Positions 17,841 through 50,472 of a stretch of DNA of 64,000 bases are shown piece after piece. A program made the position numbers and the translations under genes. Numbering within the stretch: position 1 is the stretch's first letter; each line of letters begins with the position of its first letter. The notes under the pieces are model-generated. The model was not told where the DNA came from. It saw only the letters and a program-made list of their open reading frames with translations, and ran no database searches. This stretch comes from Pocillopora damicornis (Eukaryota): NCBI RefSeq assembly GCF_003704095.1, contig NW_020846508.1, positions 124,001 to 188,000 on the forward strand. The letters are read 5' to 3'.

Positions 17841-20800
17841 ATGATAACAAGTTTTTCTGGCAATCGTGTTCGCTGTGTGAGCTGTGTTGCTGCCGTAAGC
17901 TCAAATATGGGGATTGGGAAAAACGGGAGATTGCCCTGGCCCTCACTGAGGTAAACCTGCTTCAGCTTGAATGTATTCAACTCTATTGATTGTTTGCTTC
18001 AAGGAAACGAACTCTATGGATGGTTTTGCCTTTAGCTCACTTGCTTCTTAACATTTATTCATTAAATGTTGGGTAAATAATAGAAGAAAACTGTACAGAG
18101 TTTTGTCAATTTTCTTGTTGGGTGTGAGAAAAATGATCAAACCTTTTTCAATTATGTCAACGATTGTGGTCTTAGATGACTCTCGTCTAAATCGTTAGTG
18201 AAGATGGCACTCTCCATAAGGGTTATTATTCATTATAATAAGCATGACATGTGCTTTATTTCTGATGTACCACTCTATCACATGAAAACCTTTTTCTAAG
18301 AAGGAAGATAAAAGGAGATTTTAAGTCTCAAGTTCATCTATTATTACTATTTTATTACTAGGAACTACTATAGGAACAGACTGTATCAAAACTAAAAGAT
18401 TTTTGTTTTCCTTTGTTAAGGACAGACCTGATGTTCTTGAAGAAAATTACCACTGAGGTTAATGAACAAGGTGTGTTATTGAACACTTTTAAGCCCACTG
18501 AAAGTGGATATGAAATACAATCGATAAAAAGATAAAAACACAAGATCTAGAGGTAGTAAGGCATTTTAAATAGTAACTGTTCATGCTCCCAAGATCAGCT
18601 TTCATAAAGGAAAGTTTCTAGGTTTTCTTAGAGACAAAAGTTGGTGACCTGTTTCACATGGACCCTGCTAAAGCACAGCTCCAAGTGTTTGAAGGTATTA
18701 TAAACTTGCTTATGAGAAATTGATTGTAGCCCTTCCCAATTTCTGAACCATTAGAAATCTGTTATCACTCTACCCGAATAAGATATGAATCTATCAGGGC
18801 AAGGATTTTTATTAAGGTTTGCAGCATAGGAGCATCAGTATTGAGTGCCTGGGCATACTTAACATAGGGCATAAGGAGACTTGCTTCCCTTCCCCTCAAT
18901 GGTTTAGAGATGTACTTTCCCAGAAATTTTTTAAGTTCTTCCAGTTATTCTGCTTTTAAGAGGGGAAACTAATATGCTTCAGTTACTAAAAGTTATGGTT
19001 TCACAATAGGATTGAATCTTGAGTTGATGAACCAGTCAATGAATGAATTAGTTTTCTATCAGTAAAATCTTTTAATTATTTAACCCCTACATTTTATAAG
19101 TTCAAATATATCTTTATTTTAAAAGAAATATAAGGAAAATATTTGGTGGTTACATATATGTCATTCCTTTTGTTGATATTTTGGAAGCAGCCAGACAGAG
19201 TTGTCCCCACAGCCAGTCAATTTTCCTGGTGTTGAGCCCTTTGTCAGATTTTTTTCTCAGGGTTCACTTTTATCCATATATACCCTACGAGAGAATTCAT
19301 CGCTCTAGAACATAATAGATTGACATCAGCCAGAATTTTAACCTGGGCCACACAATGAAGAATAGAGTTATGTTGAATTAAAAAACTTCACCCTGCTCTT
19401 CATTACTAGTTTGATCTTGGATGTTGCAAATTTGGTTTTTTTAGCTGCACTCTGTAAATAGGTTACTGGTCTGCCTCTAGCTTTCTGAGATTTCTAATCA
19501 TCTTTTGGCAAGCGGTTTGGGTAAGAGGTTAAATACAAGCCTTTTAATGATTGTTTAATAGGTAAATGGAATGCTGTATTAATGGGGAGAAAAACTTGGG
19601 AATCACTTGATATGACCAACCAACCCTTACCTGGAAGACTGAACATTGTTATAAGTAAGACACTGAAGTAAGTACCATGTGTGCCTTTGATATGAACACA
19701 CATAACAATTAAGGAATCAATCCCTTCTATTTTGTTTGTAGATGTTTTGACTTCTCAGTGTATAGAAATAAAAAGGATCTAAATCAGGTCAAAACTCATC
19801 TCATATCCCTCCCAAAAAACAAATTACAACCAATACCAGGAAATTTCTCAGAGGAGACAAGCAATGCAGCAAGTGAGCAAACATGGGCAGGGTTCTTGCA
19901 AGGCTTATGGAGTGGAAGAGAACCTCCAATTTTGTTTCCTAGATAATTTGGTTTTATCAGTTGAGTTGTTAATGTTAATTGGCCAGGGAAGTTTATGCAA
20001 GTGCAAAGCTCCAATAACAGAATGAAATGCAACTTTATGATAATTATTGACACTATGCAATGAAAGCCTGCCCTGTGTGTGCTGATTCTCTCCACACCAG
20101 TGGTTTCAATAAAACATGGTGCAAATGGTTAATTTAGAATCTGGTCTTTGAGGAGTCAGACTTTAGCAGGTATATTTTCCAGCATTTTTGTTCCTGGAAT
20201 TCTACCAATTTGAATAGAATTACAGATATGTAAGGTGTACAAAGACTTTTGTGTAAGGCTACAATTAGATGACCAACTCTTTTTGATTGGTTAAATCTAC
20301 CCTCTAAGTAGCTGCTATTGGCTTAATTACCTCCTTCACACAAGTTTGTTACAGTACATCAAGTGTTTAGTTTCTACTTATTTTGAATCAGGGAGCCTCC
20401 TCCTGGAGCACACCATGTTTTTAACAGTGTCTGGTCTGCAGTTCAAATGTTATCTCTCCCTCCTCTTTTGGACACAGTGGAAGAAATTTTTGTACTTGGT
20501 GGTGGTGATGTGTACAAGGTAAATATCTTAACTATCATGTTATGATCCCTAGAGCACTTCTCAACTTAGTGTGTTAAAACCAAAACCAAAATAATTTCGA
20601 CGGCTAATCACTAGAAAGGGACTCCCGTAGAAACAAGCAAACAACCTAATGTGTGGGAAAAGGCAGGCGACCAAGTGGAGATGGTTTTAGTTTTGCATGT
20701 TATTGATTGAGAGGGCAGTCTGAGTTTTCTTGATCAATGTAGTCCCAGATTCCTTTGGACACAACTGAAAATTGCAGTGGTTGTAAACTGGTAGGTCTGA

Positions 20801-48800: not shown

Positions 48801-50472
48801 CTTCAACTAGAATGAAATGCTGAATAAGCTGACCCAGTCCTCCCCCTCTCCCCCCTTTTACAAATCTCAAATGAAATTGATTGGAAGTTGAGGGATCATA
48901 CTTCAATAAAAAAAATAATAAGGTGATTGAAAAAAAGCTCCAAATCCTGTCACAATACTGCTTGGATAATTATGATTTTTTAAAAAAATACCACTAGACT
49001 GTCAGTGCCAAGATAAGACATGCTTCATTGGATTCTGAATAAACTAACATTGAACATGAAACAGAGTCTTTACCTCAAGGTTTTACTCAACAAAATGTTC
49101 ATTCTGTGGGGAAGGGGTCTGTATTTGGCTGGAATGGATTCCCACGTCTTGCGGCCCATGATAACGGCATTTTGCTTCCCTGTGAATGCAGAAAATTGTG
49201 CAATCAAATAATGACAATCATACAATTATTGGTTTTGCACTCTGCCACAATATAATGTAACTCAGGGAACTGGAACTGACATGATGAACTCATCAAAATC
49301 TCCTGTAGGGTTTTCATGCAAATTCATCCTACCTTCAGTGGGCACTCCAGAAGTGAGTTTGGAGAAAAACTTCAAATCTGCTCTAAAAACAAATTCAAAT
49401 AAAGTTCACTCAGTTTAGTACTACATCTCTGTTCATCAATGTACTTGTCTCTGAGTCGTCTGCTGAGAGTTTAAACCAATCAGCACTAGAACAGAGAAAT
49501 TCCAACAACATTCTCTGACTGTCATCGAATACAAAGTTTCATTTGGTCATGTGATGTTTCATTTGAGAACTAAAATAAATATGTTAACTTGAAATTTTAT
49601 TTATTAGTGAAATAAAAAAAGAAATTCATTCAAAGAAAGAGAGTTCGTTTATAGCCAAGAAGTCATATCTCAGCGGGAGGTAAAGGTGGAGGTTGATATT
49701 CTGAGCCCTACATATTTACCTTACACCAAAATAAATCCAATTATTTTACATTCTTGCCAAAAATAAAGTTGAAACCCTGGGGAAAGTTCTTTGCGACCAA
49801 TTAAAACTGACCCTTTTGCATGAGCAGATGTTTTCGTTACCTTTTTTTCCACCAATGTTTTCGGATAATGCTTATTAGCAACCTGTGAAATTTAGACCAC
49901 GCCCTAGAAATGCCCTCGTACCTACATCTCCCCCACCTACTTAGACCCCCTAAGGGAATCACTGATCATAGAAATACTAAACCTTTCAAAAGAAGCAAAT
50001 TGGAAGGTAATCAGATCTTGAAGTATCATGAGTACACCACAAAAATAAGAAAAGTTAAAGTTAAGCATACCCTTAAAAACATCAACATGACAAAATACGT
50101 TCGGGACGTGAATACTTGTGCACGGAACTGAAATTTGAACATTGTGAAGCGATCAGAGATGTGACATTCGCAACAAAAAAGCTGATTTGAGAAGCTTTTC
50201 CAGATGAGATCTGTAAGAATAACTAAGTCTCGAAATTTTATAAAGCTGGTGTTGGTTCAGTTTTCAACATTATTTTTTACAACGCAAGCAAACTTCAGGA
50301 CTCCCAACAGTGGATCAGCACACGCACTCGCAAACATTATGCCTATACGATGCAACTAGGGTAGACAATGTCACCCAGCTTACTTCAGACGCCAGGGAAG
50401 CGTGTTATTTTTTCCAATTCCTCCACCCTCCGCCACAGCAACTACACAAGAAAACTTTCGCTGAGTAGTCAT
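45891..50472 (-). CDS. DHFR: Dihydrofolate reductase, canonical copy (186 aa, 6 exons)
   Basis: Exons 50472-50384, 49382-49333, 49179-49074, 48544-48421, 47010-46898, 45969-45891. Motifs [68 protein letters not shown]. Confidence 0.94.
47843..48047. mobile_element. Young TIR element spanning a 100-N gap, nested in an older repeat (~47819-48279)
   Basis: AATAGGCCTTATTCGTATTCCCGGAC ... GTCCGGGAATACGAATAAGGCCTATT is a perfect 26-bp inverted pair. Confidence 0.8.

What the first reader, a model, noticed from the sequence alone, without database searches (positions are those of the whole stretch)
17841..50472. Two intact, anciently duplicated, intron-containing DHFR genes 23 kb apart
Seen: both copies have 6 exons with the same intron phases (2,1,2,0,2) and identical lengths for exons 2, 3 and 5 (50, 106 and 113 nt). 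They are only about 45-50% identical by my manual alignment and face each other across three unrelated genes. Established: most animals use one DHFR, and human DHFR2 is a retrocopy. Inference: an old DNA-level duplication with both copies kept under selection, suggesting sub- or neofunctionalisation in folate or pterin metabolism.
Basis: partly seen in the sequence, partly recalled or inferred. Interest (0 to 1): 0.7.

Follow-up and report, generated by a model that had tools for sequence, protein, structure and literature searches.

The report
Two specialised DHFR genes in corals
Stony corals of six genera keep two old, spliced copies of the folate enzyme DHFR: one with an ordinary active site and a mammal-type cell-cycle promoter element, likely serving cell division, and one with an altered substrate pocket, likely doing a different job such as pterin salvage.

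Summary
Confirmed. Copy A (+, 17841-22544, 203 aa) and copy B (-, 50472-45891, 186 aa) each have six exons with phases 2,1,2,0,2, are 46% identical, and are spliced in RNA contigs of four runs. Both copies occur in six coral genera from both main scleractinian lineages, often a few locus tags apart, so the pair is general for stony corals. B is canonical and carries an exact 13-base match to the published mammalian DHFR promoter element plus two CCAAT boxes; A's upstream region has neither. A is conserved (dN/dS about 0.1) but has the long, human-type Met20 loop and lacks Phe34 and Pro61 in 14 of 14 rows, while keeping the catalytic acid and Arg70. Best reading (0.45): B is the proliferation-coupled DHFR, A a cell-cycle-independent reductase with a shifted pocket; the substrate shift is inferred, and sponge DHFRs share the loop and Leu34. 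A is probably not the vertebrate DHFR's orthologue (AU p=0.035, uncorrected). The premise that most animals have one DHFR is weak: extra DHFR-like copies turned up in frogs, a hemichordate and lophotrochozoans. No paper on the pair in ten searches.

The parts
17841..22544 (+). DHFR copy A, 203 aa; exons 17841-17950, 18421-18470, 19562-19667, 20392-20518, 21269-21381, 22439-22544; long Met20 loop (PWPSL), Asp39, Leu43 (human Phe34), Asp70 (human Pro61), Arg79 (human Arg70)
45891..50472 (-). DHFR copy B, 186 aa; exons 50472-50384, 49382-49333, 49179-49074, 48544-48421, 47010-46898, 45969-45891; short loop (PW-RL), Asp32, Phe36, canonical pocket
50513..50525 (-). Exact match to the published DHFR promoter element ATTTCGCGCCAAA (overlapping inverted E2F sites, recalled), 41-53 bases upstream of B's ATG
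50585..50612 (-). Two CCAAT boxes at -140 and -117 from B's ATG
17640..17648 (+). AAAATGGCG (YY1-like, recalled) near the 5' end of A's RNA contigs, opening a short upstream ORF; the same word precedes A orthologues in L007 and L028
   Evidence: the word alone is not rarer than chance: 40 of 100 shuffles hold it
23762..26374 (-). Intervening gene 1: ankyrin-repeat protein, one long open frame; also next to A in two other corals
   Evidence: (L007, L029)
37008..38563 (-). Intervening gene 2 (tentative): Ig-domain exons at 38264-38563 and 37008-37235; full model not built
   Evidence: Ig_3 E=7.7e-4, under cut-off
41059..44447 (+). Intervening gene 3: PEX11, three coding stretches
50750..58905 (+). 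Carnitine acyltransferase (CPT1-like) gene, head to head with B, start codons 278 bases apart; runs on beyond 58905

Best explanation
The two genes are old, spliced DHFR paralogues kept across stony corals, and they likely divide the work: B is likely the cell-cycle-regulated enzyme that recycles dihydrofolate for DNA synthesis, and A is likely a cell-cycle-independent NADPH reductase whose altered pocket would favour other pterins such as dihydrobiopterin. Shown: gene structures, splicing, retention in six genera, purifying selection on A, the promoter element upstream of B only, the fixed residue changes in A. Inferred: that the element binds E2F in coral, that B follows proliferation, and that A's substrate preference has shifted. 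The duplication predates the split of complex and robust corals and probably the coral-anemone split.
For: B: exact 13-base match to the published DHFR promoter element 41-53 bases upstream; the 12-mer occurs once in the window, in 0 of 100 shuffles, and 191 times in 234 Mb, about 1.6e-4 for a given 200 bases if evenly spread; two CCAAT boxes; none of these in 600 bases upstream of A. PCNA, a positive control, has an E2F core at -577. B keeps Phe34, Pro61, Arg70 in 9 of 9 rows and groups with Nematostella DHFR (97/86). A: Phe34 to Leu in 14 of 14 rows against Phe in 275 of 303 other domains; Pro61 lost in 14 of 14 against Pro in 267 of 303; Gln47 to Trp in 14 of 14; acid 30, Thr56, Arg70, Thr136 and the NADPH residues kept. 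In 5 of 7 fixed A/B differences B has the state commoner in other DHFRs. Long stem (0.42) then short crown branches in A; dN/dS 0.10-0.14 NG86. Frog DHFR-like proteins show the same Leu34 and Asp61. A Montipora study lists a DHFR homologue down-regulated together with Rrm1 and Rrm2b (passage; copy not stated).
Against: Sponge DHFRs have the long loop and Leu or Met at 34 in 10 of 10 rows, and no other sponge DHFR was retrieved, so these two changes may suit an ordinary housekeeping enzyme. A keeps Arg70, which binds folate's glutamate (recalled). The second control, thymidylate synthase, has no E2F core in about 0.95 kb upstream, start site not located. The B promoter is shared with a CPT1-like gene. 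E2F sites cluster in promoters, so the chance figure is too low. Conservation of the element in other corals was not tested. The 14 A rows are related, not independent. No kinetics and no tissue or cell-type expression were seen; contig depth cannot rank the genes.
Confidence: 0.45

Rival explanations
1. Regulatory split only: both are ordinary dihydrofolate reductases, B for dividing cells and A for constitutive supply; A's pocket changes do not alter what it reduces.
For: Promoter difference. A keeps every catalytic and NADPH residue checked and Arg70, folds like human DHFR (TM 0.96 by target, rmsd 1.4). Sponge DHFRs share the loop and Leu/Met34.
Against: Loss of Pro61 and Trp47 are fixed in A and absent from sponges and B; A's stem is long.
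Confidence: 0.3
2. A belongs to a second DHFR lineage older than cnidarians, shared with sponge DHFRs, the second domains of lophotrochozoan two-domain DHFRs or the frog DHFR-like gene, and lost in many animals.
For: Shared long loop and non-Phe34. AU tests do not reject A with sponges (p=0.32), with second domains (0.056), with the frog gene (0.107) or with both of the last (0.088). With the trait columns kept, the quick tree puts A with sponges (82, unstarred).
Against: With those columns removed the best tree is a cnidarian clade (92/85) holding A and B; loop length changes at least 5 times and Phe34 6 times on it.
Confidence: 0.12
3. Dosage or back-up: two interchangeable genes kept for more enzyme.
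For: Both spliced in the same runs; equal rates after the split.
Against: 46% identity, fixed pocket differences and different promoters; redundancy alone is not expected to last this long (inference).
Confidence: 0.1
4. A is the orthologue of vertebrate DHFR and B of insect-type DHFR, each lineage having lost one copy.
For: A aligns without a gap to human DHFR over 183 residues, loop included; Porites A reads PWPPL as in human.
Against: AU p=0.035 (one of eight tests, uncorrected); vertebrates group with other deuterostomes; A and B are about equally identical to mammalian DHFR (45% and 43%).
Confidence: 0.03

Closest known systems
Vertebrate DHFR (human, PDB 1kmv, 1dhf)
   Same: Fold, gap-free alignment to A, 8-residue loop motif and Gly20 in A; promoter element upstream of B; six-exon layout (recalled).
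   Different: In corals the human-type loop and the human-type promoter element sit in different genes; A lacks Phe34 and Pro61; the acid is Asp, not Glu.
Human DHFR2 (DHFRL1)
   Same: A second DHFR gene in one genome.
   Different: DHFR2 is 92% identical to DHFR (PMC10884974, search listing) and a retrocopy (recalled); the coral pair is 46% identical with five introns each.
Invertebrate short-loop DHFR (Nematostella, insects, nematodes)
   Same: B has the 7-residue motif, Phe34, Pro61, Arg70 and groups with Nematostella.
   Different: A has no counterpart among the named anemone or arthropod proteins retrieved.
Frog DHFR-like proteins and second domains of lophotrochozoan two-domain DHFRs
   Same: Extra DHFR copies with a changed folate-tail pocket; frogs share Leu34 and Asp61 with A.
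   Different: They mostly lose Arg70 and Met52, which A keeps or changes only to Leu/Phe; common origin is neither shown nor rejected.
Demosponge DHFRs (Halichondria, Dysidea, Ephydatia)
   Same: Long PWPxL loop and Leu/Met34.
   Different: Keep Pro61; appear as a separate clade once the trait columns are removed.

Membership tests
Dihydrofolate reductase (Pfam DHFR_1) | Profile score above the curated cut-off | tested here: met
   123.6 bits for P0001 (98% identical stand-in for A), 140.1 for P0467 (identical to B), cut-off 25
Dihydrofolate reductase (Pfam DHFR_1) | DHFR fold | tested here: met
   A model pLDDT 93; human DHFR best match, E 5.9e-24, rmsd 1.4. B was not folded.
Dihydrofolate reductase (Pfam DHFR_1) | Active-site acid, Thr136, Arg70, NADPH-binding Arg/Lys54, Thr56, Gly116-Gly117 | tested here: met
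   Present in both copies; roles recalled
Dihydrofolate reductase (Pfam DHFR_1) | Canonical folate pocket: Phe34 and Pro61 | tested here: inconclusive
   Met in B (9 of 9 rows); not met in A (0 of 14); Leu34 also occurs in sponges and 20 of 303 other domains, so it is not strictly defining
Dihydrofolate reductase (Pfam DHFR_1) | NADPH-dependent reduction of dihydrofolate | not testable with these tools
   Needs enzyme assay
DHFR2-type retrocopy | No introns in the coding sequence, high identity to the parent | tested here: not met
   Five spliced introns each, 46% identity
Vertebrate DHFR orthologue (copy A) | One clade with vertebrate DHFRs | tested here: not met
   AU p=0.035, uncorrected
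E2F-regulated DHFR gene (copy B) | DHFR promoter element near the start | tested here: met
   13 of 13 bases at 50513-50525
E2F-regulated DHFR gene (copy B) | E2F binding and G1/S induction | not testable with these tools
   Needs ChIP, reporter or single-cell data
Pseudogene | Broken frame or neutral evolution | tested here: not met
   Open frames; dN/dS 0.10-0.14 for A; for B only protein conservation was available

The most novel reading that the evidence does not exclude
Copy A is a pterin-specialised reductase from a second animal DHFR lineage, older than cnidarians, that survives as the sponge enzyme, the second domain of lophotrochozoan DHFRs and the frog DHFR-like gene; corals keep it beside a canonical gene whose E2F promoter element is identical to the mammalian one, which would date that switch to the cnidarian-bilaterian ancestor.
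Probability: 0.12. Interest if true: 0.72.

Novelty: new variant of a known kind. Interest (0 to 1): 0.45.

Why it matters
DHFR is a model for how loop motion shapes catalysis, and the extra residue in the Met20 loop is treated as the human-type state. Corals carry both loop types in one genome, with Gly20 beside the long loop and Asn beside the short one, but without the Pro61 proposed to be needed with the long loop: a natural matched pair for kinetics. If A works on pterins, it points to an overlooked class of animal DHFR-like enzymes. Coral expression studies should also report the two genes apart; B would be a proliferation marker.

Tried and rejected
Artefact or haplotype copy: rejected (46% identity, best DNA match between the loci 52 bases at 75% in exon 4; both copies in other corals). 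Pseudogene and retrocopy: rejected. A as vertebrate orthologue: disfavoured. Dating beyond the coral crown is open: A plus B alone (p=0.186), an anthozoan clade (0.425) and Nematostella outside (0.15) are all allowed. The 81-row careful tree did not finish. A targeting peptide in A's N-terminal extension: not conserved among orthologues, dropped. Contig depths are not used to rank the genes. dN/dS for B: no orthologous DNA obtained. Liu 2013 and Bhabha 2013 were not held, so what they say on the loop's history is unseen. One row of an Acropora tenuis supplement lists a DHFR at log2 change -0.33; copy and comparison not established, not used. Earlier findings of the scan: none.

Full report
Observation. 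Both genes are as described. Copy A runs on the plus strand from 17841 to 22544 in exons of 110, 50, 106, 127, 113 and 106 bases (203 aa); copy B on the minus strand from 50472 to 45891 in exons of 89, 50, 106, 124, 113 and 79 bases (186 aa). All introns are GT-AG with phases 2,1,2,0,2. The proteins share 86 of 186 aligned residues; 7 of 37 four-fold sites match, so silent sites are saturated. Between them lie an ankyrin-repeat gene, a tentative Ig-domain gene and PEX11; B is head to head with a CPT1-like gene. Searches of the genome with the Pfam model and with a divergent relative find only these two loci (lower bounds, as only the best candidates are scored). The closest named proteins are from Pocillopora.

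Expression. I laid 4 of 22 listed runs, from four studies. Contigs join all five introns of A in 4 of 4 runs, four introns of B in 4 of 4 and intron 1 in 3 of 4. The runs were found with A's region; contigs show presence only.

Distribution. A-type proteins are named from Desmophyllum, Oculina, Acropora, Montipora, Porites, Stylophora and Pocillopora; B-type from all of these except Stylophora, where none was among the rows listed (each search lists only its best 120). Linkage is kept: locus tags OS493_003633 and 003639 in Desmophyllum, G007914 and G007918 in Oculina, accessions CAH3124815 and CAH3124825 in Porites lobata; same-length records in three Acropora species and Montipora foliosa, different records in M. 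capricornis. The ankyrin gene neighbours A in L007 and L029. That these genera span the complex and robust lineages, several hundred million years apart, is recalled. Over 15 genus pairs orthologues are 67-84% (A) and 65-82% (B) identical (four rows are unnamed representatives whose clusters hold named members). dN/dS among three A sequences is 0.10-0.14 (NG86), 0.05-0.13 (ML), 0.15-0.21 (LWL85), with dS near or above 1.

Phylogeny. From 400 proteins I cut 378 DHFR domains and made a fast tree. A careful tree used 47 rows chosen to span named groups; one truncated row, the loop columns and the Phe34 column were left out. It gives B with Nematostella (97/86), A with the unnamed P0327 (97/91), cnidarians together (92/85) and vertebrates among deuterostomes. 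Of seven fixed A/B differences, Nematostella has B's state in six and P0327 A's state in five. Eight AU tests: A with vertebrates p=0.035 (named before the trees, but uncorrected); A plus B alone 0.186, A with sponges 0.32; with lophotrochozoan second domains 0.056, with the frog gene 0.107; with both 0.088, anthozoan clade 0.425; Nematostella outside 0.15. So the split is certainly older than the coral crown, probably older than corals and anemones, and an origin before cnidarians is not excluded; a quick tree with the trait columns kept put A beside sponges without star.

Active sites. A aligns without a gap to human DHFR and its model matches it at rmsd 1.4. In human numbering, A has the long loop in 13 of 13 rows that cover it, Leu34 in 14 of 14, no Pro61 in 14 of 14 and Trp47 in 14 of 14, and keeps acid 30, Arg54, Thr56, Arg70 and Thr136; B has the short loop, Phe34, Pro61 and Arg70 in 9 of 9. 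Among 303 other domains Phe34 occurs 275 times and Pro61 267 times; that set was partly retrieved with A. PMC10191325 (passages) contrasts the 8-residue human motif with 7-residue motifs and links length to lower flexibility; its reference list names a paper on the critical role of Phe34 (title only). PMC11514014 (passages) argues Gly20 and Pro61 matter when the double proline is present. A has Gly20 in 5 of 6 rows and B Asn in 6 of 6, Porites A reads PWPPL, yet A lacks Pro61. Against a substrate shift, 10 of 10 sponge-clade rows (three named) have the long loop and Leu or Met34, with Pro61 kept; loop length changes at least five times on the tree.

Promoters. B has ATTTCGCGCCAAA at 50513-50525, identical to the element given as published for DHFR (Transfac R01928) in PMC2784457 (table passage); that it is a pair of E2F sites is recalled. 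The 12-mer occurs once in the window, in 0 of 100 shuffles, and 191 times in the genome against 29 for the reversed control. Two CCAAT boxes lie at -140 and -117; A's 600 upstream bases hold no E2F core and no CCAAT, but an AAAATGGCG word also seen before two other A orthologues. Controls: PCNA has a core at -577, thymidylate synthase none in about 0.95 kb, 1 of 2. I noticed the element after the fact and could not test it in other corals.

Mechanism. B most likely supplies tetrahydrofolate to thymidylate synthesis in S phase under E2F and NF-Y control; A most likely acts outside the cell cycle with a loosened folate-tail pocket, plausibly in tetrahydrobiopterin salvage, a known second job of vertebrate DHFR (recalled). 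Confidence 0.45; regulatory split with unchanged chemistry 0.3.

Comparison and novelty. Both are DHFR family members by profile, fold and residues; neither is a retrocopy. Extra copies are not rare in animals: frog DHFR-like proteins, two Saccoglossus proteins, two-domain DHFRs in Paralvinella, Lamellibrachia, Dimorphilus, Watersipora, Mytilus and Ylistrum. Databases label both coral copies DHFR or DHFR-like. No paper on the pair appeared in the listings (coral, duplicat; PWPP; paralog, Nematostella; dihydrobiopterin, cnidaria; coral genera, symbiosis) or 78; subscription journals are mostly missing and two key papers were not held. PMC6385260 (passage) mentions one coral DHFR falling under stress without naming the copy.

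Verdict. Real, general for stony corals, apparently undescribed, with independent hints of division of labour in promoter and pocket. A new variant of a known kind; interest 0.45.

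Noticed in passing
P0015, P0121-P0126, P0129, P0133: Annelids, a bryozoan and bivalves have two-domain DHFRs whose second domain has a long loop and mostly lacks Arg70, Met52 and Phe34; these second domains form a clade (100/100). I saw no paper on them in my searches, which did not target them.
   Followed up: partly
P0155 cluster: Frog DHFR-like proteins with Leu34, Trp52, Asp61 and no Arg70, separate from vertebrate DHFR; pocket changes parallel those of coral A and P0327.
   Followed up: partly
P0327: Unnamed sister of coral A with Tyr52 and Thr70, more degenerate than A; its taxon would help date the duplication.
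   Followed up: partly
window 17643-17684; L007 6-26; L028 21-32: The ATG in AAAATGGCG opens a short upstream ORF (13, 6 and 3 codons) before A in three corals; possible translational control.
   Followed up: no
window 17922-18448: Contigs retaining intron 1 of A in runs X10 and X16; databases list a 163-aa isoform starting at Met41, which lacks the loop and the catalytic acid.
   Followed up: no
window 11470-11883 (-) and 14556-14834 (+): Two small, apparently secreted proteins upstream of A with no Pfam match, one with a short tandem repeat; a Stylophora gene model (P0413) fuses the second to DHFR A, likely a mis-join that shows conserved order.
   Followed up: no
window 50472-50750: DHFR B and a CPT1-like gene share a 278-base divergent promoter; mammalian DHFR also has a bidirectional promoter, with another partner (recalled).
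   Followed up: no
window 42139-42639 (-): Decayed reading frame in a PEX11 intron that looks like the end of a LINE reverse transcriptase (by eye; no Pfam match).
   Followed up: no
P0427: Porites harrisoni and P. lutea entries suggest an extra partial A copy near the pair.
   Followed up: no
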